DNA of 64,000 nucleotides from a virus (lineage: Duplodnaviria; Caudoviricetes), in IMG/VR virus record IMGVR_UViG_3300017791_000194, positions 10,083-74,082 of that record. One strand, 5' to 3'. Positions within the stretch are counted from its first letter, which is position 1; each line of letters opens with the position of its first letter. Position numbers and translations under genes: made by a program. This document shows, one piece after another, positions 8,940 to 52,121 of the stretch. The notes beneath the pieces are model-generated. The model was not told the DNA's origin. It saw only the letters and a list, made by a program, of their open reading frames with translations, and made no database searches.

Positions 8940-8956
8940 CTGACTCGATTGAGAAT

Positions 8957-9066
8957 GAGGCTGCGGCGATGATGCCGCAGCCTCCCATGCCACGCCTTGC
9001 CAAGCCAAGGCACGCCGAGCCAAACCATGCCGAGCCACGGCTAGCCATGCCTAGCCACGCCACGGC
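8957..9066 (-). ncRNA. GGY-NN array 1 (16 units) plus 3' hairpin; putative guide RNA
   Basis: Perfect 5-nt register 8985-9066; hairpin gaggctgcggc/gccgcagcctc 8957-8984; TACGCT on - strand at 9071-9076. Confidence 0.8.
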
Positions 9067-9090
9067 CTACAGCGTACAAGGAGACGTGCA

Positions 9091-9732
9091 ATGAGCACCA
9101 CCGACATCGAGAACGGCAGAGAGCTGACCGCCCTCGATCCCGTCAGCAACGACGGCGAACCAATCATCAAGTTTCAGGAGCCCTTCGTGGCGCGAGTCAC
9201 GATCCAGGGCGTGAGCGCGATCTTGTTTCACAGATGGAGCAACGAAGCGGTCGCTGCCAAGGCCGCCGCTGCGAAGAACAGCAAGGCGAAGAAGTCAGAC
9301 GACGTCGAGTCGTACTTGTATCGCGCCGACAACGGCAACATCGGCATCCCCGGTGAGTACCTGCGGCGCTCGATCATCACCGCTGCGAAGTTCAAGCAGG
9401 ACCCTCGCTCGCCACGGAAGTCGGCGATGGACCTGTACCAGGCGAGCATCATCAGCCTGACCGACCTTGCCGATACCGGCGCCAAGGAGCCCGACTACAT
9501 CGACCGCCGCCGGGTGACCGTGCAGCGATCTGGTGTGACGCGGGAGCGACCGGCGCTGCGGGCTGGCTGGACGGTCACGTTCGATCTGCTCTGCCAGTCT
9601 CCCGAGTACATCTCGCCTCAAGACCTTCTTGACACGATCACTCAGGCTGGCCGACTGGTCGGGATGGCTGACTTCCGCCCGAGCTTCGGCCGCTATCAGG
9701 TGACCCGGTTCGAGGTCACGCCCGCGGCATGA
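9091..9732 (+). CDS. vipr: stand-alone RAMP/Cas7-like protein (Vipr-like effector)
   Basis: N-terminal beta strand (RVTIQG), IPGEYLRRSI resembling the Cas7/Csm3 IPGSSLKG motif, C-terminal Gly loop GRLVGMADFRPSFGRY; adjacent GGY-NN array; no cas1/cas3/cas10 in window. Family name from recollection. Confidence 0.75.
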   Translation: MSTTDIENGRELTALDPVSNDGEPIIKFQEPFVARVTIQGVSAILFHRWSNEAVAAKAAAAKNSKAKKSDDVESYLYRADNGNIGIPGEYLRRSIITAAKFKQDPRSPRKSAMDLYQASIISLTDLADTGAKEPDYIDRRRVTVQRSGVTRERPALRAGWTVTFDLLCQSPEYISPQDLLDTITQAGRLVGMADFRPSFGRYQVTRFEVTPAA

Positions 9733-10028
9733 CCGAGAACCTGCGCCCACTGGCGGCGTGGGACTCCGACGATCCGGTCGTCAAAGGCGTGGCCTGGTGG
9801 TCACGCCTTGACGGTCGGTATCAAGTCGAGGTCCAGTACGCCGACAGCGACGGCTACAGAGGCACTCTTGTCGTCTTCGATCACAACGATGGCGACCGAG
9901 TGATCCACTCAGAAGAGACGCCGATCGCGTACGCGGCGCGCTTCGGGCCAGACATGCAAGACGTCGAGCGCTGGCAGACCCGCGTTCTCGAAGTCATCGA
10001 CCAGTACAACTCAGGAGCAGTTGTGTAA
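9729..10028 (+). CDS. hypothetical protein
   Basis: ATGA overlap with the RAMP gene. Confidence 0.65.
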   Translation: MTENLRPLAAWDSDDPVVKGVAWWSRLDGRYQVEVQYADSDGYRGTLVVFDHNDGDRVIHSEETPIAYAARFGPDMQDVERWQTRVLEVIDQYNSGAVV

Positions 10029-10408
10029 TGCACCGTAACGACAATGGCGAGAACCTCGTGGTCGTCAACAAGCGCGACCTGATCAAGGCACTTCAGGCGA
10101 ACCGCGAGAACCATCGCGCTGAGTTCGAGAAGGCCCTTGACGGCTTCGAGAAGACGGCCGTCGAGATCCTGAAGGCACGCCTCGCTGAGGCGAAGAAGGG
10201 CATCAAGCGGGCGATCAGCGTGAACCTGCCGATGCCTGAGGATCACACCCGTGACTACGATCGGCGTATCCGGATGTACGAGATGGACATCGAGGACAAC
10301 GTCGAGCTGACCGAGGCCGAGTTCGCGCAGTACGTCCAGGACGACTGGGGCTGGAAGCAACAGTGGACCACGAGCAACACCGCCTACATGGCGGCAAGTG
10401 CGAAGTGA
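10028..10408 (+). CDS. hypothetical phage protein
   Basis: TAATG coupling, ggag SD. Confidence 0.75.
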   Translation: MHRNDNGENLVVVNKRDLIKALQANRENHRAEFEKALDGFEKTAVEILKARLAEAKKGIKRAISVNLPMPEDHTRDYDRRIRMYEMDIEDNVELTEAEFAQYVQDDWGWKQQWTTSNTAYMAASAK

Positions 10409-10653
10409 GGAACCGCATCCTCGCCATCATCGCGATCAGCGTCGTGGGTGCGGCGCTGATCTTCTTCGGCTTCGGGCTGTACCTGTTGTCACAGCCGGAC
10501 ATCGTGACGATGGTCCCGTCGACACCGCCGCCGACAACCGACGTCGTCACGCATTCGCGTGACTTTGCGTTGGTCACCACGGTCATCGCTGGGGTTGCTG
10601 TCGGCCTGGCTGCATTGATCGCTGGGATGGCGGCGTCGGAGATGCGCGAGTGA
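10405..10653 (+). CDS. two-TM membrane protein
   Basis: GTGA overlaps; two hydrophobic segments. Confidence 0.65.
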   Translation: MRNRILAIIAISVVGAALIFFGFGLYLLSQPDIVTMVPSTPPPTTDVVTHSRDFALVTTVIAGVAVGLAALIAGMAASEMRE

Positions 10654-10910
10654 GCGACGAGCCGTACAACCCGGTCAAGGCCGTCGTGATCGACACGATC
10701 AAGGCGCACATCCCGAGTCTCTCTGACGAGGATGAGGAAGCAATCCACGAGAAGGTCGTCAACTACACCTTCTCGCGGCTCAAGGACGACGAGGATCTAG
10801 CTGACTTCGCGATCCGCACCTGTGCGTGCGGCGTGCGGGTTGATGGGTTCTATCAGTACGCAGATCATCTGATCAGCATCTTCGGTGGCGAAAGTCACTT
10901 CGGCGGCTGA
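10650..10910 (+). CDS. hypothetical protein with CxC; homolog of the array 2 target
   Basis: GTGA overlap; C-terminus ISIFGGESHF matched in frame by array 2. Confidence 0.75.
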   Translation: MSDEPYNPVKAVVIDTIKAHIPSLSDEDEEAIHEKVVNYTFSRLKDDEDLADFAIRTCACGVRVDGFYQYADHLISIFGGESHFGG

Positions 10911-10912
10911 TC

Positions 10913-10997
10913 ACCATGCCATGCCTCGCCATGCCGCACCAAGGCTGACCGAGCCTCAGCCCGCCCCGCCAAGCCACGCCGCGCCATGCCAAGGCTT
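10913..10997 (-). ncRNA. GGY-NN array 2 (17 units)
   Basis: Uninterrupted register; TAGTAT on - strand at 11001-11006; tgatcagc/gctgatca stem downstream. Confidence 0.8.
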
Positions 10998-11008
10998 CAC
11001 ATACTAAA

Positions 11009-11187
11009 GGCAAGCCAAGCGGAGGCTAGGTGCGGCGTGGCCAGGCTCGCATTGGCGAAGGCCGGGACCGGTACGGCAAGGCTCGGCGAGGCAAGCGATG
11101 CCGGGGCTGGGTTCGGCGGGGTTTGGTGCGGCCGGGCGTTGGCAAGCGGGGGCATTGGCGGGGGCTGGCCCAGGCAGGGCGAGGTTC
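11009..11187 (+). repeat. GGY-NN array 3 (degenerate, ~33 units, with indels)
   Basis: 5-nt periodic GGC/GGT with register slips; divergent from array 2. Confidence 0.7.
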
Positions 11188-11210
11188 ATCTACGCGTACA
11201 GGAGATCAAC

Positions 11211-11411
11211 ATGGCAACAAGGAACCCTCGGATGCTCAGCCCTGCGGCGCTTGCGAAGCAGCGGGCGTTCGGGACAGAGCGACACACCGTTGAGTCCATC
11301 AACTACATCACTGACGAGCTGACCTGCTCGTGCGGCAACTGGACGGGCCCTGCGCTCGATCTCGCTCCGTTCCGAGCACATCGTCGTCAGTTCTTCAAGT
11401 CAAGGCGATGA
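11211..11411 (+). CDS. small CxC protein (66 aa)
   Basis: aggag SD before ATG 11211; the upstream ORF extension is array translation. Confidence 0.65.
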   Translation: MATRNPRMLSPAALAKQRAFGTERHTVESINYITDELTCSCGNWTGPALDLAPFRAHRRQFFKSRR

Positions 11412-11413
11412 GC

Positions 11414-11615
11414 GGCGGGGTGCGGCAGGGCTTGCTACGCCGTGGCATTGGTGGGGCGGGGAAAGCGGAGGCTAGCCGCGGCTAGGTCTGCGATGGCGAG
11501 GTGGGGCTTGGCACGGCAAGGCGTGGCAAGGCAAGCGGTGGTCTGGTCTGGTCTGGCGGGGTCGGGCTCGGGCACGGCAAGCGAAGCCGAGGCTAGCCTT
11601 GGCATGGTAAGGTCA
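11414..11615 (+). repeat. GGY-NN array 4 (~40 units, partly degenerate)
   Basis: Starts 2 nt after a stop codon; gtcac-acacc-gtgac hairpin at the 3' end. Confidence 0.75.
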
Positions 11616-11621
11616 CACACC

Positions 11622-12089
11622 GTGACGACCTACCGCGAGCTTGGTGAACGTCTTGGGGTCGACGTCTGCACCGGCTGCGATCTCGACACGAGCGGCAAGC
11701 ACGGTCTGAACCATGAGGCTGGGCGCTGGGGCGCCGACGGCCGGTTCCACTATTTCGAGCGGGCCATGCGCCGGTCGAGCATCCGCAACTTCGTGTGGCG
11801 GATCTCGGGATACTGGCCGCCGCGTGAACATGGTCACGGCCCACGGCAAGCGTGGGAACTCTACTGGGAACGTATCCAGTGGGCCAAGGGAGCGCTTCGC
11901 GCGCTCCGCGTACGACTACCTTCTCCCGCGTGGGACACGCAACGAGCGACGCTTCGGGCGCTGCTCGCCGTGCCCGCGCGGGATTTTTTTGATGAGGTTT
12001 TCACGGAGCACCGAGCGGTCACTCGTAAGGCGGCCTGGCGCTGGGCGAAGAAGCCCATTGATCACGCTGATCCTTCGTACGATGATTGA
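11622..12089 (+). CDS. hypothetical protein
   Basis: GTG 11622 (or ATG 11604); the ORF-track N-terminus is array translation. Confidence 0.6.
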   Translation: MTTYRELGERLGVDVCTGCDLDTSGKHGLNHEAGRWGADGRFHYFERAMRRSSIRNFVWRISGYWPPREHGHGPRQAWELYWERIQWAKGALRALRVRLPSPAWDTQRATLRALLAVPARDFFDEVFTEHRAVTRKAAWRWAKKPIDHADPSYDD

Positions 12090-12092
12090 CCA

Positions 12093-12338
12093 ATGCCAGC
12101 ACCGCGCGTCGACCCACTCTCACAACGGCTTCTGGTTCAGGTTCTGCGGCGTGCCCTGGACCTCCATCTCCACCAGCCTCACGACCGGACTGCCGAACGG
12201 CGGGTCCGCGCGATCGTCCTGCGCAATCCGAAGTCTGCCCTCAGCTCTCACGTACGACACAACCTGGGCAGGCAGCGGCGTGAGGCGCTCGATGCCATCT
12301 TGGCCCGAGCCGACGCTCGTTCGTTGACCGATGGTTGA
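12093..12338 (+). CDS. hypothetical basic protein
   Basis: ATG 3 nt after the previous stop. Confidence 0.5.
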   Translation: MPAPRVDPLSQRLLVQVLRRALDLHLHQPHDRTAERRVRAIVLRNPKSALSSHVRHNLGRQRREALDAILARADARSLTDG

Positions 12339-12492
12339 GAAGCTCAAGCTCCACGAGTTCAAGCCCCAGCGGGCCAATCGCTTCGCCTGCGAAGAGTGCC
12401 CGTATTTGGCGAACAATCCCGTACACGTTCGCGGGTTCAAGGCTGACGCAACCTACATCAAGGGGGTGGCTCGCCCGAACAAGACGGGCTAG
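12331..12492 (+). CDS. small CxxC protein (53 aa, below the ORF-track cut-off)
   Basis: MVEKLKLHEFKPQRANRFACEECPY...; overlaps the previous stop and ends just before array 5. Confidence 0.55.
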   Translation: MVEKLKLHEFKPQRANRFACEECPYLANNPVHVRGFKADATYIKGVARPNKTG

Positions 12493-12499
12493 CCTCAAC

Positions 12500-12627
12500 G
12501 CCTTGGCATGGCTGGGCCGGGTATGGCTGGGCATGGCGGGGCATGGCGGGGTTTGGCTTGGTGAGCCAGGGCTAGGCGCGGCGTGGCTAGGCGTGGCAAG
12601 GCATGGTCGTGACAGTCAGCTGTCACG
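12500..12627 (+). ncRNA. GGY-NN array 5 (22 units) plus 3' hairpin
   Basis: Perfect register 12500-12609; cgtgacag-tcag-ctgtcacg at 12608-12627. Confidence 0.8.
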
Positions 12628-12648
12628 GGGAGACCTGATGATGCTGGC

Positions 12649-13422
12649 ATGAATCCCCTGGTGCTGAGCGGCAGCTCTCTGAACACCTGGTTCGAGTGCC
12701 CGCGCGAGTGGATGTACCAGTACCTCTGGCGCAAGGAGATGCCCCTCAGCTACAAGATGGCACTGGGGGTAGCGGCGCACGAGGCGGTCGAGGCGGCCTT
12801 CCGGTACCAGAAGGCGACCGCCATGCTGGCGCCGCTACAGATCTACGAAGAGGCGTTCAACCATTTCTGGGCTGAGACCACCAAGAACAGCCGCCCGAAG
12901 AATAACCAGCCTGCCGAGAGCGCCGAGACATACCGTCGCTCGGGGCTCCAGGCGGTCGGCTTCTACGCCCGGCAGGTCGCGCCGACCATCGACGTAGTCG
13001 CTTTCGAGGAGCCGATGGCGGCCACGATCAACGGCCACACCTGGACCGGCACCCTCGACCTGATCGATCGGATGCCCGACGGTGGCCTGCGGCTCCGGGA
13101 CCACAAGTTCACCTCGAAGAAGCCCAACCCAGACCAATACAAGCGCCCGATGATCGGCTACTACCTGATGGCCCGACAGCGGTACGGCGACATCGCGGCG
13201 GTCCAGCTGGACTACATCATCCGGGGCAACCGGGACCGCCCGCCGCAGTTCGTACCAGTCTTGCTTGACATCACCGAGGAGGACATACTGGACTTCGCGA
13301 CCGACGTTGAGGAAGCGGTCGCGAGCATCAACGTCGGTCGCTTTCCGCCACTGGGCAACCAAACGCTCGCCTGTCGCTGGTGCCCGTACCGGAAGATCTG
13401 CCCTGACGCCAGATTGCGCTAG
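12649..13422 (+). CDS. PD-(D/E)XK RecB/Cas4-like exonuclease
   Basis: ECPR, GTLDLID, DHK motifs and C-terminal CRWCPYRKIC cluster. Confidence 0.85.
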   Translation: MNPLVLSGSSLNTWFECPREWMYQYLWRKEMPLSYKMALGVAAHEAVEAAFRYQKATAMLAPLQIYEEAFNHFWAETTKNSRPKNNQPAESAETYRRSGLQAVGFYARQVAPTIDVVAFEEPMAATINGHTWTGTLDLIDRMPDGGLRLRDHKFTSKKPNPDQYKRPMIGYYLMARQRYGDIAAVQLDYIIRGNRDRPPQFVPVLLDITEEDILDFATDVEEAVASINVGRFPPLGNQTLACRWCPYRKICPDARLR

Positions 13423-19431: not shown

Positions 19432-19934
19432 TCTTGCTGGCGGCGCCAGCCACCGCGGTGGCGCCGTCAGCACCTCGATCGATCCCTGACGCGGCGTTCG
19501 CGCCGGTGACCGTTCCGCAGGTCATCTACGATTTCCCCGAGCCAATGCCCGGGCAGCGGCCGGTGATCAAGCTGCCGAACAAGCCGATCGTTGAGGTGCA
19601 GCACCATGTAGATCGATCACGACCGGAAGCTTCCATCGGCCGGTCGATTTCTGGGCAAGCCAGCTGGTATTGCCGCGCTGGTGTCTCGGCTTGCCGCTAC
19701 GCCTACCCAGACGGGCCAGGCTTCGATGCCTATGCCGCAGCTGGCCCGAAGCTCCGTGCGGCGCTCGGCGACTGGCGCGGCCGGGTCGTCACCGTCAACG
19801 GCATCCGCGTGAAGCTCATCGACTGGTGTCAGTGCTCGAAGGGCAAGCCGGGCGAGAAGATCATCGATCTGTACTTCGATGTTGCCCGTGCTCTGGGCAT
19901 CACCGGAGTCGGCCCGGTCACGATACGCTGGTAG
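19425..19934 (+). CDS. RlpA-like double-psi beta-barrel protein with signal-like N-terminus
   Basis: GQASWY...V.LIDWC.C...IIDLY...LG..G...V.I.W pattern. Confidence 0.75.
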   Translation: MVILLAAPATAVAPSAPRSIPDAAFAPVTVPQVIYDFPEPMPGQRPVIKLPNKPIVEVQHHVDRSRPEASIGRSISGQASWYCRAGVSACRYAYPDGPGFDAYAAAGPKLRAALGDWRGRVVTVNGIRVKLIDWCQCSKGKPGEKIIDLYFDVARALGITGVGPVTIRW

Positions 19935-20300: not shown

Positions 20301-20492
20301 ATGGGCGTCGACAAGCAATCCAAGAAGGTCAAGAGGGCAACCCTCTCGGCCAAGCCGCGCTACGGGGGCGACCCGTACGTGGACCGTCACGGAGTGTCAA
20401 CCGAAAATCATCTTCAGCTCTGGCGTCGCCTGGTGGCGAACGGACCCGTGATGCACGGGCCTCCGGGCCCACCGCGACCCCACAAGAGCTGA
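20301..20492 (+). CDS. small basic protein (63 aa); homolog of the array 10 target
   Basis: Array 10 NNs match codons RHGVSTENH in frame. Confidence 0.65.
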   Translation: MGVDKQSKKVKRATLSAKPRYGGDPYVDRHGVSTENHLQLWRRLVANGPVMHGPPGPPRPHKS

Positions 20493-20581: not shown

Positions 20582-20657
20582 TGCCGGGTGGCCAAGTAGG
20601 TAAGGCACCGCGCTCTGAACGCGGCAATCGCTGGTTCGAGTCCAGCCCCGGCAACCA
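20582..20657 (+). tRNA. tRNA-Gln (CTG)
   Basis: tgccggg/cccggca acceptor, ccgcg-ctCTGaa-cgcgg, GGTTCGAG T-loop, encoded CCA. Confidence 0.93.
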
Positions 20658-20795
20658 ATCAACATGGCGGCAGACGGGATGTCCGCGGCAGTCCCGCCAA
20701 CCAGACAGAGACGGTGAGACCGGACCCGGTTCCGCCCGGGCGAGCACTCTGCCGATCGAAGGACCGAGCCCAGGGTCGTGGGCAGCCGTCTCCAT

Positions 20796-20883
20796 GGCAT
20801 AGGGAAGCGCTGGGGTCAGCGCGCTGGCTGGTGAGTGCCTCGACAGCCAGAGGTCTGGGTTCGAGTCCCGGCCCTGTGCCGCC
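20796..20883 (+). tRNA. tRNA-like element with a 17-nt expanded anticodon loop
   Basis: ggcataggg/ccctgtgcc acceptor, D-like arm, ctggc/gccag stem, GGTTCGAG T-arm; no clean CCA. Confidence 0.5.
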
Positions 20884-20886
20884 TTC

Positions 20887-20962
20887 GCCGACGTAGCTCA
20901 GTGGACAGAGCGGCTGGTTTCTACCCAGCATGTCGCGGGTTCGACTCCTGCCGTCGGCGCCA
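20887..20962 (+). tRNA. tRNA-Arg (TCT)
   Basis: gccgacg/cgtcggc acceptor, gctgg-ttTCTac-ccagc, CCA. Confidence 0.93.
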
Positions 20963-20965
20963 TCG

Positions 20966-21042
20966 GGGCGGCTAGCTCAGTTGGTCAGAGCATCTGGTCG
21001 ACATCCAGAAGGCCGCTGGTTCAAGTCCAGCGCCGCCCACCA
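20966..21042 (+). tRNA. tRNA-Val (GAC), with C33
   Basis: gggcggc/gccgccc acceptor, tctgg-tcGACat-ccaga, CCA. Confidence 0.88.
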
Positions 21043-37231: not shown

Positions 37232-37435
37232 TCAGGTCATCGGACCCGTGAGCGACTCGCCTTCCCAGTCGAAGTCGCCGTCCTCGTCCTCGTCAGGAGG
37301 CTTGCTCGCCTCGATGACGTGGTCGCGGAGTTCTTTGAAGTAGCGGAATGGGTAGCGCCAGATCACGTGAGGCATCACGCCCCACCATTTGGCCATGACG
37401 AACGCCATCTGGCGGTTCGTCAGGCGGCGTTTCCC
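37232..37435 (-). CDS. tail assembly chaperone -1 frameshift extension (gpGT-like)
   Basis: In-frame slippery G GGA AAC at 37429-37435; the -1 frame is open to TGA at 37232. Confidence 0.8.
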   Translation of the reverse strand, partial: GKRRLTNRQMAFVMAKWWGVMPHVIWRYPFRYFKELRDHVIEASKPPDEDEDGDFDWEGESLTGPMT

Positions 37436-37788
37436 TGGGGGGTCTCCTCGGGCTCTGGCTCAGTCTCGATCTTCACCGGCTCGTCGCCGTAGTGCAGATC
37501 GCTGACCAGCTTCTGGATCGCGCGGTAGTAGCGCACGCCCAGCTTCAGTAGCTGGTCTGGCTTCGGCCGAACGGCATCGAGGATCATCAGGCGCATCAGC
37601 GTGAGCTGATCGATGTCCTCTTCATCCTCGCCGGTGATGTCGTTGCGGGTCTTGGTCGTTGCCTTCGCGAGCAGCTCGTTGTAGCGCTCCATCGACAACT
37701 CGGTCACGGTGTAGGTGGTGCCGCGGATCGTGGCCCGAATGCTGGCGGGGACGTCAGACGGCGCTGGAAGATCAACCTTGGCGCTCAT
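37420..37788 (-). CDS. tail assembly chaperone (gpG-like)
   Basis: Position before the tape measure; slippery site before the stop. Confidence 0.8.
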   Translation of the reverse strand: MSAKVDLPAPSDVPASIRATIRGTTYTVTELSMERYNELLAKATTKTRNDITGEDEEDIDQLTLMRLMILDAVRPKPDQLLKLGVRYYRAIQKLVSDLHYGDEPVKIETEPEPEETPQGNAA

Positions 37789-38092
37789 AGAGTTTCACTC
37801 CTTTGACGAGTAGGACTCGACCGGTGAGTACCGTTTCCTCTGCCTCGGTCAGCTGAGCCCGGAACTCTTTGCTTCTGCCGATCACGAGCTGCGCTTCTTT
37901 GGTGTAGTCCGGATCGTTGAACAGAAGTGGGTTGACAAAAGAAAACACGGCGCGGAGGTCGTAGCGGTAGGTACCGCTGTCTGCTCCACGCCGCGTGAGT
38001 TCCCATTTTTCAGTGACGCCGACAACGGCGCCGAGATCGGGGATGGTGATCTGGCCCCTCACACCAGAAATGCGCTTGAACAAATAGGGCAC
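37772..38092 (-). CDS. hypothetical tail-region protein
   Basis: ggagg SD, GTG start; lower GC3. Confidence 0.65.
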   Translation of the reverse strand: MPYLFKRISGVRGQITIPDLGAVVGVTEKWELTRRGADSGTYRYDLRAVFSFVNPLLFNDPDYTKEAQLVIGRSKEFRAQLTEAEETVLTGRVLLVKGVKLYERQG

Positions 38093-38124
38093 GGCCTCCT
38101 CCGTAACGGAGTGAAGGACTAGAA

Positions 38125-38158
38125 CTGTGGTCCCGCAGCGAACACTACGGGACCACAG
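38125..38158 (-). terminator. hairpin after the major tail gene
   Basis: ctgtggtcccg/cgggaccacag 11-bp stem. Confidence 0.5.
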
Positions 38159-38186
38159 AACTCACATGTTGTTGATCAGCTGTGGA

Positions 38187-38612
38187 TTACAGCGAGCCGT
38201 CGCTGAAGACTGTCCACGCACCCGACGCCCGGAAGTTGCCCGAGACGCGGATGGCGTCGGTATTCGACGCGGTGATCGTTGCATCGAACAGGCCCGGGCC
38301 GTATGCGATGCAGATCTCGTTGCTGGTGCGATCGTCTGCATACAGGTAGATCAGCTGGTCATCAGAGTTGGTCGTGTTGACCAGAAGATCACCGGACACG
38401 TCGAGCAAGCCGTTGAAGCTGCCCTGGATGTCCTTGAGGCCGACGAGGTAGGTCTTGTTGGTGTCACCGAAGACGGTGGCATCAACATAGTCACGGTTCA
38501 GGTTGAGCGTCCACTCGCTCTTCGCCGCGACCTTAGTGCCCACGTTCTTCGGGCCACCAACATAGATCGCGCCGTTCTTGCCATGACGCTTGGTTCCGGC
38601 ATTTGCAGCCAC
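38187..38612 (-). CDS. major tail tube protein
   Basis: Synteny; W.L.L....VDAT.FGD....L.GLKD..GSF.G pattern. Confidence 0.8.
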   Translation of the reverse strand: MAANAGTKRHGKNGAIYVGGPKNVGTKVAAKSEWTLNLNRDYVDATVFGDTNKTYLVGLKDIQGSFNGLLDVSGDLLVNTTNSDDQLIYLYADDRTSNEICIAYGPGLFDATITASNTDAIRVSGNFRASGAWTVFSDGSL

Positions 38613-51223: not shown

Positions 51224-51323
51224 GCCCTGCCTTGGCACGGCGAGTCTGGGCATGGCCGGGTCGGGCCTGGCGGGGTTGGGCTGGGCATGGCGTGGGAGGA
51301 GCTGTTCATCCGAGCAGCTCCTC
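51224..51323 (+). ncRNA. GGY-NN array 12 (14 units) plus 3' hairpin
   Basis: Register 51224-51293; gaggagctg/cagctcctc at 51296-51323; CATACT at 51218. Confidence 0.8.
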
Positions 51324-52121
51324 AATCCGCTCTCGCGTCAAGGTCGGCAGGCCCATCGAGTCGTTGATCCTCTGGCGCTCGGCGCTGACTTCGGGATCGC
51401 GGTCACGTACTTCCTGGAGGAAGTGGCGCCTGCGGACTTCGATCTCGGAAACGTGACCAATCTCGATTCGGGTATCGACGAAGATGCGCGCGCCCACGGC
51501 CTTTGCGTCCTGGCAAAACTGAAGGTCCTCCCCAAAGACGCCCGTCCAGCGGAAGAACTCCGTGGGGTTCATCCCGATCCGCACGCCGTATGGCGGCATT
51601 GGGCTCCCGATGATCATCTCGAAGACACGCTTGTGGATGAGCACGAAGGCCATCCCCGTCGCGTCGACCTCGACGATGTCTTCGGTCCAGTCTTCGAGGT
51701 AGTTGTAGGCGCCCGAGGTCGGGTTCTCCCGCATGAACAGCGTGGGCTGGTACGGTGCCGATCGGCGGAAGCACAGGGCGCCCATGATGTCGGCGTCGAC
51801 CTCGTCGCGGGCTGCGACCAGGCGCCCGATGTCTTTGGGATACCAGACCATGTCGTCGTCGATGAACATCAGCCAGTCGCCGATCATCCGCTGCACCGCG
51901 CCGTTGCGCTGGAGCGGCAGGATGTTGCCCTGGATGATGTTCCGGTTGACGTAGCGGCCTGGCGGTATCCAGGTCCAGTCAGTGTGGGTCAGGGCGGTGG
52001 CCGTGGCCGCGTTGACGGTGTCACGAACCGGGATCGAGATCGTCCCGACACAGGCGGGATCGTCGCCTTCAGGGAAGTTTCCCAGGAGACGCAGCTCAGA
52101 GAACTGCACCTGGCTCTTCAT
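51306..52121 (-). CDS. GT2-like glycosyltransferase
   Basis: QRN, FIDDD, VDATGMAFVL, GEDLQFC. Confidence 0.85.
   Translation of the reverse strand: MKSQVQFSELRLLGNFPEGDDPACVGTISIPVRDTVNAATATALTHTDWTWIPPGRYVNRNIIQGNILPLQRNGAVQRMIGDWLMFIDDDMVWYPKDIGRLVAARDEVDADIMGALCFRRSAPYQPTLFMRENPTSGAYNYLEDWTEDIVEVDATGMAFVLIHKRVFEMIIGSPMPPYGVRIGMNPTEFFRWTGVFGEDLQFCQDAKAVGARIFVDTRIEIGHVSEIEVRRRHFLQEVRDRDPEVSAERQRINDSMGLPTLTRERIEELLG

What the first reader, a model, noticed from the sequence alone, without database searches (positions are those of the whole stretch)
10872..10997. Array 2 encodes, wobble-skipped, the C-terminus of a homolog of the neighbouring gene
Seen: on the - strand the NNs include AT GC GT TT GG GG GA TC CA TT, i.e. 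(I/M)AV(F/L)GG(E/D)S(H/Q)(F/L). The gene ending at 10910 reads ATC AGC ATC TTC GGT GGC GAA AGT CAC TTC (ISIFGGESHF). Seven of ten dinucleotides are identical in frame, plus a Ser TCN/AGT switch and a conservative V/I change. The target is only ~12 nt from the array. Inference: the guide is aimed at a relative's allele.
Basis: partly seen in the sequence, partly recalled or inferred. Interest (0 to 1): 0.86.

Follow-up and report, generated by a model that had tools for sequence, protein, structure and literature searches.

The report
Phage VIPR guide aimed at relatives
The five-letter repeat array is a guide RNA gene of a phage VIPR system (a CRISPR-like DNA silencer described in 2026). Its variable letters spell the last ten codons of the neighbouring gene as rival phages carry it, and this phage's own copy next door matches less well.

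Summary
On the minus strand, window 10911-10995 holds 17 phased GGY-NN units. Units 2-11 match the plus-strand codons at 10872-10901 in 7 of 10 dinucleotides (15/20 nt).

This is not chance. It is the only hit of at least 7/10 in the whole 74-kb genome, and 2 of 5000 shuffled guides reach it locally.

- The window encodes a Vipr protein at 9091-9732. Its family profile matches the solved SUSP1 Vipr at E 4.7e-18, and its model has a Cas7/Csm3 fold.
- The published VIPR rule has NN pairs read the target while skipping every third base.
- Metagenomic homologues of the 86-aa neighbour match the guide better than self: 19/20 nt in two, 17-18/20 in seven.
- All three self mismatches are matched by alleles that exist in relatives (chance about 5e-4).
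- Only the 1-nt skip gives such hits.

Arrays 1 and 13 likewise match relatives' alleles of their adjacent genes better than the phage's own allele. Array 12 does so only weakly.

VIPR is already published, and this scan has met it in at least 7 other genomes. What looks new is that guides lie dispersed across the genome, each beside the carrier's own mismatched allele.

Expression, the vrRNA ends and the mismatch tolerance are untested.

The parts
10911..10995 (-). Array 2: candidate vrRNA gene with 17 phased GGY-NN units (14 GGY, 3 degenerate)
10941..10995 (-). Guide part, units 1-11. The NNs of units 2-11 spell I A V F G G E S(TCN) H F under the 1-nt skip rule.
10911..10940 (-). The 3' six units (GC AT GA AT AT GA). 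No relative matches them. They resemble the 3' ends of other arrays (GGC-AT/GT ... GGCAT GGT), so they are probably scaffold or handle; this is inferred.
11001..11006 (-). A -10-like hexamer TAGTAT, 5 nt upstream of the first unit. Similar TAnnnT hexamers precede most arrays. It shares an AT-rich spacer with the divergent array 3. The consensus sigma-70 scan found no promoter.
10872..10901 (+). The carrier's own near-cognate site, the last sense codons ISIFGGESHF of the 86-aa gene: 7/10 units, 15/20 nt
10650..10910 (+). 86-aa gene of unknown function with conserved HIPSLSDEDE, RTCACG and DGFYxYxDHL...FGGESH motifs. Its family carries the target.
9091..9732 (+). vipr gene: 213-aa Vipr/RAMP protein (phrog_4652)
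8987..9061 (-). Array 1, lying divergent from vipr. Its units 2-12 match the antisense strand of a relative's vipr gene at 21/22 nt, against 16/22 at the carrier's own site.

Best explanation
Array 2 is a guide-RNA (vrRNA) gene of a phage-borne VIPR system.

Inferred steps:
- It is transcribed from the minus strand, starting a few bases after a TAGTAT -10-like element.
- Vipr protomers from the gene at 9091-9732 bind each GGY and present the NN pairs.
- The complex reads double-stranded DNA with one base skipped per unit.
- It binds this site in co-infecting or competing relatives and blocks transcription through their early-gene operon, as shown experimentally for SUSP1 VIPR.
- It spares its own genome.

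Shown by sequence:
- The first 10-11 units specify the last ten sense codons of the 86-aa gene family (IAVFGGESHF, Ser as TCN). The skipped base falls on the wobble position.
- Related phages carry alleles that match at 17-19 of 20 informative bases.
- The carrier's own allele, 10 nt from the array, matches only 15/20, because it reads Ser-Ile (AGC ATC) where the guide reads Ala-Val, and AGT where the guide reads TCN.
For: System:
- The profile of the 213-aa family hits PDB 36pp 'SUSP1 Vipr protein' at E 4.7e-18 over residues 33-206. The single sequence hits it at E 1.6e-7.
- The AlphaFold model has pLDDT 93.8. Its best Foldseek matches are Csm3/Cas7 subunits.
- There are 13 or more phased GGY-NN arrays in intergenic gaps.

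Guide and target:
- Self scores 7/10, and this is the only such hit in the genome. The local p is 4e-4 to 8e-4.
- Relatives score 8-9/10 units and 17-19/20 nt.
- The probability that the three self-mismatched units all equal alleles seen in relatives is about 5e-4, using the arrays' own NN frequencies.
- Shuffled guides give no hit of at least 8/10 in the relatives.
- Only the 1-nt skip gives 9/10. Skips of 0, 2 and 3 nt reach at most 7.
- Over units 1-11, by my count from the table, L015 and L019 score 20/22, L009 19/22, L013-type 18/22, self 16/22 and L012 17/22. The published >=80% criterion therefore separates most relatives from self.

Same logic at other arrays:
- Array 1 against the L009 vipr gene: 21/22 nt, all skips at codon position 3, self 16/22.
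- Array 13 against the 162-aa gene: L037 8/9, self 7/9.
- Array 12: L037 17/20, self 16/20.

Literature: the 1-nt skip rule, wobble skipping, repression on either strand, targeting of competing phages and of their VIPR genes, and self-match lower than non-self match are described in 10.64898/2026.04.26.720920.720927 and 10.64898/2026.10.15.759431.
Against: - There is no evidence of expression or processing, and the vrRNA ends are unknown.
- The match covers 10-11 of 17 units. Over the whole array the best relative reaches 24/34 (L009) and the others 18-22/34, below the published 80% criterion. No perfect target was found in IMG/VR or in 185,579 genomes.
- Self and non-self differ by only 2-4 informative bases, and the mismatch tolerance of this Vipr is unknown.
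- No significant tail structure follows array 2 (z -0.64). The consensus scan found no promoter.
- Substitutions unique to the carrier are not enriched in the guide footprint.
- For array 10, the one relative found matches no better than self.
Confidence: 0.8

Rival explanations
1. Cis-regulation of the carrier's own genome. The vrRNA binds its imperfect site at 10872-10901 on purpose. This could be a roadblock that stops plus-strand transcription from running antisense through the convergent array, or a way to tune the downstream genes.
For: The site is 10 nt from the array. Four arrays have near-cognate sites (about 70-78% of units) within 150 nt, always on the opposite strand. The phage evidently tolerates these sites.
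Against: Relatives match better than self at arrays 1, 2, 13 and weakly 12. A guide selected for self-binding should match self best. The published systems show no self hits at >=80%.
Confidence: 0.1
2. Trace of guide origin. The NN string was copied or templated from an older version of the neighbouring sequence by an unknown guide-making process, and it has no present targeting role.
For: The guides whose targets could be identified (arrays 1, 2, 13, and weakly 12) all sit beside the homologue of their target. The guide equals the family consensus rather than any one sampled allele.
Against: No mechanism is known that converts 3-nt-phased DNA into 5-nt-phased repeats. The phage keeps an intact Vipr gene and promoter-like elements before the arrays. 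Scaffold units remain GGY in 14/17, which argues for maintenance.
Confidence: 0.07
3. Chance resemblance between a biased repeat and a Gly-rich codon run.
For: Only 7/10 units match in self. GG and GA are common both in the arrays and at codon positions 1-2.
Against: It is the only hit of its kind in 148 kb of strand sequence and lies 10 nt from the array. Only 2/5000 local shuffles reach it. Independent relatives fill all three mismatches (p about 5e-4). Other skip rules give nothing.
Confidence: 0.03

Closest known systems
VIPR systems (Vipr protein + vrRNA), as described for Escherichia phage SUSP1 and a Pseudomonas fulva prophage (bioRxiv 10.64898/2026.04.26.720920; structures in 10.64898/2026.04.26.720927, PDB 36pp)
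   Same: - A Vipr homologue of about 200 aa with a Cas7-like fold.
- Tandem GGY-NN units.
- Targets read with one skipped base per unit, at the wobble position.
- Targets lie in competing phages.
- No self hit at >=80%.
   Different: - At least 13 arrays are scattered over 52 kb of the genome. In the published type II loci they are grouped around vipr.
- Most arrays have their own -10-like element.
- No vap gene was recognised.
- No conserved pseudoknot tail was seen after array 2.
- The genome is high-GC (63.6%) and comes from an uncultured phage.
- The carrier holds its own diverged copy of the target right beside the guide.
Solo and VIPR+ vrRNAs that target relatives' vipr genes and vrRNAs, with self-match lower than non-self match (bioRxiv 10.64898/2026.10.15.759431)
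   Same: The guide is aimed at a close relative's version of a sequence. Self is spared by a lower match score. Array 1 here also targets a relative's vipr gene.
   Different: [quoted passage not shown] Here the target family is present in the carrier and lies adjacent to the guide.
- The target of array 2 is an ordinary early gene. It is neither vipr nor a satellite gene.
Free-standing homing endonucleases of T-even phages (intronless homing, marker exclusion). This comparison rests on my own knowledge and was not tested here.
   Same: In both, a weapon gene sits next to the conserved gene that it attacks in relatives, and the carrier's copy is protected by sequence differences at the site. 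The weapon and the immune allele are therefore inherited together.
   Different: Here recognition is RNA-guided, and the known output is repression rather than cleavage. No nuclease partner was identified, and no copying of the array into relatives has been shown.
Class 1 CRISPR-Cas (Cas7 backbone on crRNA)
   Same: The protein has a RAMP fold, and protein subunits flip out bases periodically along the guide.
   Different: There is no CRISPR repeat-spacer array and no cas1, cas2, cas5 or cas6. The guide information is held in dinucleotides of 5-nt repeats.

Membership tests
VIPR system | Vipr protein: a small RAMP with an RRM core, a G-rich loop and a thumb, homologous to the SUSP1 Vipr | tested here: met
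   Profile vs PDB 36pp E 4.7e-18; single sequence E 1.6e-7, aligning the C-terminal G-loop region GxxDFRPxFGR; model pLDDT 93.8; Foldseek best hits Csm3/Cas7
VIPR system | vrRNA made of tandem GGY-NN (YNNGG) units, 9-16 per RNA, with some degeneracy allowed | tested here: met
   17 units in one phase, 14 of them GGY. This is one unit above the published range, and the RNA ends are unknown.
VIPR system | A natural target matches the NN string under the 1-nt skip rule at >=80% of the informative bases | tested here: inconclusive
   Met over units 2-11 (19/20 nt in L015 and L019) and over units 1-11 (20/22). Not met over all 17 units (18-24/34). The outcome depends on where the guide ends.
VIPR system | The 1-nt skip performs better than the 0-, 2- or 3-nt skip | tested here: met
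   Best 10-unit match to 203 kb of relatives: 9 with skip 1, and 6-7 with skips 0, 2 and 3
VIPR system | The skipped base falls on the codon wobble position | tested here: met
   The alignment is in frame with the 86-aa gene. For array 1 all 15 skips fall at codon position 3.
VIPR system | No self target at >=80% NN match | tested here: met
   The self site scores 15/20 (75%) over units 2-11 and 17/34 over all units. There is no other hit of at least 7/10 in the genome.
VIPR system | A conserved structured 3' tail after the repeats | tested here: inconclusive
   The region after array 2 folds no better than shuffles (z -0.64). Strong hairpins follow arrays 1, 8 and 12. The last units of many arrays are alike.
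VIPR system | The vrRNA is expressed and bound by Vipr | not testable with these tools
   No sequencing run was listed for this DNA
VIPR system | An accessory vap gene lies next to vipr | tested here: inconclusive
   The neighbours (309, 99 and 126 aa) have no Pfam or PDB match. The 126-aa protein has only a weak PHROG 'DNA binding protein' hit at E 0.0096.
CRISPR-Cas | A repeat-spacer array and cas1/cas2 or other cas genes | tested here: not met
   The repeat scans show only period-5 arrays. The nine predicted proteins scanned between 8010 and 13422 gave no Cas-family Pfam match; the rest of the window was not scanned for cas genes.

The most novel reading that the evidence does not exclude
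In this phage, guides are kept beside the carrier's own mismatched allele of the gene they attack in relatives. Guide plus immune allele would then form a tightly linked poison-antidote module. Recombination among mosaic phages cannot easily separate the two parts, since separation would cause self-silencing. The module could spread as a unit, as an RNA-guided counterpart of intronless homing or marker exclusion.

Support: the guides whose targets could be identified (arrays 1, 2, 13, and weakly 12) lie next to the target's homologue. Self-scans also place the only strong self near-matches of arrays 2 and 10 within about 100 nt of the array.
Probability: 0.4. Interest if true: 0.75.

Novelty: new variant of a known kind. 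Interest (0 to 1): 0.55.

Why it matters
This is a natural case in which both sides of a VIPR conflict can be read from sequence: the guide, the sensitive alleles in rival phages and the spared allele in the carrier.

If the guide's position next to the carrier's own spared allele is a general rule, two things follow:
- It would be a simple way to predict VIPR targets: look at the neighbouring gene's relatives.
- It would suggest that guides and immune alleles travel together as selfish modules.

The locus also extends VIPR to a family of about 72-77-kb high-GC phages known only from metagenomes. In passing, it extends VIPR to cluster F mycobacteriophages, which can be grown in the laboratory on Mycobacterium smegmatis.

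Tried and rejected
- Megablast of 9000-13000 against 50,697 phage records found no match. Blastn found only array-to-array similarity with Mycobacterium phages Quico and Florinda.
- The search for related loci with the single 86-aa protein in IMG/VR found nothing. With the alignment it found one distant relative.
- An exact 8-unit pattern in IMG/VR gave 6 hits. All lie in unrelated contigs of other G+C content and out of any homologous context, so I treat them as random.
- An exact 10-unit pattern in 185,579 genomes gave 0 hits. No homologue of the 86-aa gene was found there either, so no host could be named.
- The DNA of P0003 (TAVFGGESHFGG) was not retrievable. L015 carries the same C-terminus.
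- Sequencing runs: none was listed, and no RNA holder was listed.
- I noticed an 8-bp inverted repeat (TGATCAGC / GCTGATCA) around the self site. It is absent from the minimum-energy fold, and the region folds no better than shuffles, so I dropped it.
- Rfam found only three tRNAs and no ribozymes between the arrays.
- Test of whether carrier-specific amino-acid changes are concentrated in the guide footprint: 1 of 10 positions inside, against about 4 of 28 in the neighbouring conserved part. This is not enriched.
- The idea that the Ser AGT codon is an escape change is not supported. AGC is the commonest Ser codon at this position among array-free relatives.
- A search for a vap gene by Pfam, PHROGs and PDB sequence found nothing convincing.

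Full report
**What is there.** The window is bases 10083-74082 of a 74,082-bp IMG/VR virus record with direct terminal repeats. It is 63.6% G+C. It has no close relative among deposited phages. The gene 10650-10910 (86 aa, plus strand) ends in TGA. One base later the minus strand begins to read as a run of five-base units. In a single phase there are 17 units: 14 start with GGC or GGT and three are degenerate (GCC, GCT, GCC). Their last two bases read TT AT GC GT TT GG GG GA TC CA TT GC AT GA AT AT GA. The array spans 10911-10995. It is separated by a 10-nt AT-rich spacer from a second array that runs the other way on the plus strand. At least 13 such arrays lie in intergenic gaps between 8987 and 61269.

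**Check of the observation.** Laid on the plus strand at 10872-10901 with one base skipped per unit, they match 7 of 10 codons at positions 1-2 (15 of 20 bases), in frame with the gene. The site ends 10 nt from the array.
- I slid every 10-unit sub-window of the array along both strands of the whole genome. This is the only place with 7 or more matches.
- Shuffling the order of the NNs gives 0.7 such hits per genome on average.
- The chance of one hit in a single 150-nt flank on one strand is about 8e-4 by decoy windows. Only 2 of 5000 shuffled guides reach 7/10 within 150 nt of the array.
- The same test on all 13 arrays gives four flank hits with p<0.01 where 0.5 are expected. All four lie on the strand opposite the array.

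**What kind of element it is.** A literature search led to three 2026 preprints on VIPR systems. In these systems a small RAMP protein, Vipr, polymerises on a vrRNA made of GGY-NN repeats. The NN pairs then read double-stranded DNA while every third target base is skipped. In natural targets the skipped base is usually the codon wobble base. Binding represses transcription on either strand, and natural targets lie in competing phages and satellites.

The window encodes such a protein 1.2 kb upstream of array 2.
- The 213-aa product of 9091-9732 belongs to a large family: 1239 cluster representatives at E<=1e-3. It falls in phrog_4652.
- A profile of 65 members matches the solved 'SUSP1 Vipr protein' (PDB 36pp) at E 4.7e-18 over nearly its whole length.
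- The single sequence matches it at E 1.6e-7 through the C-terminal G-rich loop.
- The AlphaFold model is confident, with pLDDT 93.8. Its best structural matches are Csm3/Cas7 subunits.

**Test of the interpretation.** The 86-aa protein has no Pfam or PHROG family. It does have metagenomic homologues. I recovered DNA for a syntenic relative that also carries a Vipr gene 81% identical (L009/L010). I also recovered 16 further loci. Ten of these loci keep the C-terminal FGGESH motif.

Scores against guide units 2-11:

| Locus | C-terminal reading | Units | Bases |
|---|---|---|---|
| L015 | TAVFGGESHF | 9/10 | 19/20 |
| L019 | IAVFGGESHI | 9/10 | 19/20 |
| L009/L010 | ITVFGGESHL, Ser TCA | 8/10 | 18/20 |
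| L013, L014, L016, L017, L018 | IAVFGGESHL | 8/10 | 17/20 |
| L012 | IAIFGGESHL | 7/10 | 16/20 |
| carrier (self) | ISIFGGESHF | 7/10 | 15/20 |

- The three guide units that miss the carrier's gene are GC, GT and TC. Each equals an allele that exists in relatives (Ala GCC, Val GTN, Ser TCN). With the arrays' own NN frequencies, the chance of all three is about 5e-4. This test is independent of the self match.
- Shuffled guides give no hit of 8/10 or better in the relatives.
- Among skip lengths 0 to 3, only one skipped base gives 9/10. The others stay at the background of 6-7.

**How much of the array is guide.**
- The match stops where the gene stops. Units 12-17 match no sampled relative. 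Over all 17 units the best relative scores 24/34 (L009) and the others 18-22/34, below the 80% used in the preprints.
- These last units resemble the 3' ends of other arrays in this genome, which end in runs such as GGC-AT / GGC-GT ... GGCAT GGT. I therefore take them to be scaffold and not guide. This is inference.
- Over units 1-11, by my count from the table, the scores are 20/22 (L015, L019), 19/22 (L009), 18/22 (L013 type), 17/22 (L012) and 16/22 (self). On that reading most relatives pass the published threshold, while the carrier and L012 do not.

**Signals around the array.**
- A TAGTAT hexamer lies 5 nt before the first unit on the minus strand (11001-11006). Similar TAnnnT hexamers precede most arrays. 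The generic sigma-70 scan finds no promoter here.
- No significant structure follows array 2, whereas strong hairpins follow arrays 1, 8 and 12.
- Rfam finds only three tRNAs in the window.
- No sequencing run could be listed, so expression is untested.

**The same logic at other arrays.**
- Array 1 lies divergent from vipr. It matches the antisense strand of the L009 vipr gene at 21 of 22 bases over units 2-12, with every skip on codon position 3. The carrier's own vipr scores 16/22 at the same place.
- Array 13 is convergent with the 162-aa gene that follows the portal gene, and it spells VNFSYDET-stop. The carrier scores 7/9. L037 scores 8/9, with Ser TCT where the carrier has AGT. L039 and L040 have the TGA stop that the guide spells.
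- Array 12 scores 17/20 on L037 and 16/20 on self.
- Array 10 scores 7/9 on both self and its one known relative, at different positions.
- A complete 72-kb relative (G001) has neither a Vipr gene nor arrays. Most loci that carry the array-2 target are also array-free. Their intergenic gap after the gene is 0-60 nt, against about 300 nt here.

**Reading.** Array 2 is best explained as a vrRNA gene aimed at the 3' end of relatives' copies of the neighbouring gene. The carrier would be spared by five mismatched bases. What binding does there is inferred from the SUSP1 work: it would block transcription into the downstream early genes.

Three caveats apply:
- The margin between self and non-self is small, and this Vipr's mismatch tolerance is unknown.
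- Carrier-specific amino-acid changes are not enriched in the footprint.
- The Ser AGY codon is common among array-free relatives, so I do not call it an escape change.

**Relation to what is known.** The kind of system is published, and this scan has already followed up VIPR loci in at least seven other genomes. The idea that a guide matches rivals better than self is reported for vrRNA-targeting vrRNAs.

What I did not find in those texts is a guide lying beside the carrier's own diverged copy of its target. [quoted passage not shown] Here that arrangement recurs at three to five arrays, and the arrays are spread over 52 kb instead of being grouped at vipr. A linked guide and immune allele would resist being separated by recombination. 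It resembles the way free-standing homing endonucleases sit beside the gene they cut in relatives; that comparison rests on my own knowledge, and no nuclease was found here. I rate this a new variant of a known kind.

Noticed in passing
L008:709-1700 (Mycobacterium phage Quico, NC_028751.1, about 37290-38285): Quico gp57 (199 aa, annotated as hypothetical) is a Vipr homologue (hhalign probability 98%, E 2e-13). It sits next to a phased pentamer array of about 280 nt. Cluster F mycobacteriophages, which grow on M. smegmatis, therefore appear to carry VIPR.
   Followed up: partly
window 8987-9061 (-) and L009:3611-3655: Array 1 spells the antisense strand of a relative's vipr gene (segment KKTDNIESYMY) at 21/22 bases. 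The carrier's own vipr (KKSDDVESYLY, 9279-9323) scores 16/22.
   Followed up: yes
window 57066-57165 (+) and 57171-57659 (-); L037:10463-10570: Array 13 spells the C-terminus and stop of the 162-aa gene next to the portal gene. Relative L037 has the better-matching allele (Ser TCT). L037 also has its own convergent array there, but that array appears, by eye, to lack the corresponding guide units.
   Followed up: partly
window 10996-11010: Arrays 2 (-) and 3 (+) diverge from one short AT-rich spacer. It reads TAGTAT on the minus strand and CATACT on the plus strand, like back-to-back -10 elements.
   Followed up: no
window 8940-8986, 19432-19480, 51294-51325: Strong GC-rich hairpins (-31 to -36 kcal/mol) directly follow arrays 1, 8 and 12. 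Arrays 1 and 12 share the start GGGAGG. These may be tails or terminators.
   Followed up: no
window 20582-21039: Three tRNA genes lie just after array 10.
   Followed up: no
window 12649-13422: A PD-(D/E)XK nuclease (Pfam E 3.5e-23) that also hits a PHROG labelled 'CRISPR/Cas system associated' (Cas4-like), 3 kb from vipr. Whether it serves VIPR or phage recombination is unknown.
   Followed up: no
window 20301-20492: The 63-aa ORF that abuts array 10 has a 58% identical homologue in another metagenome (L041), so it is probably a real gene.
   Followed up: partly
L027-L030 (G001, IMGVR_UViG_3300003267_000287): This complete 72-kb relative shares the 86-aa and RadC-like genes but has no Vipr gene and no pentamer arrays.
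   Followed up: yes
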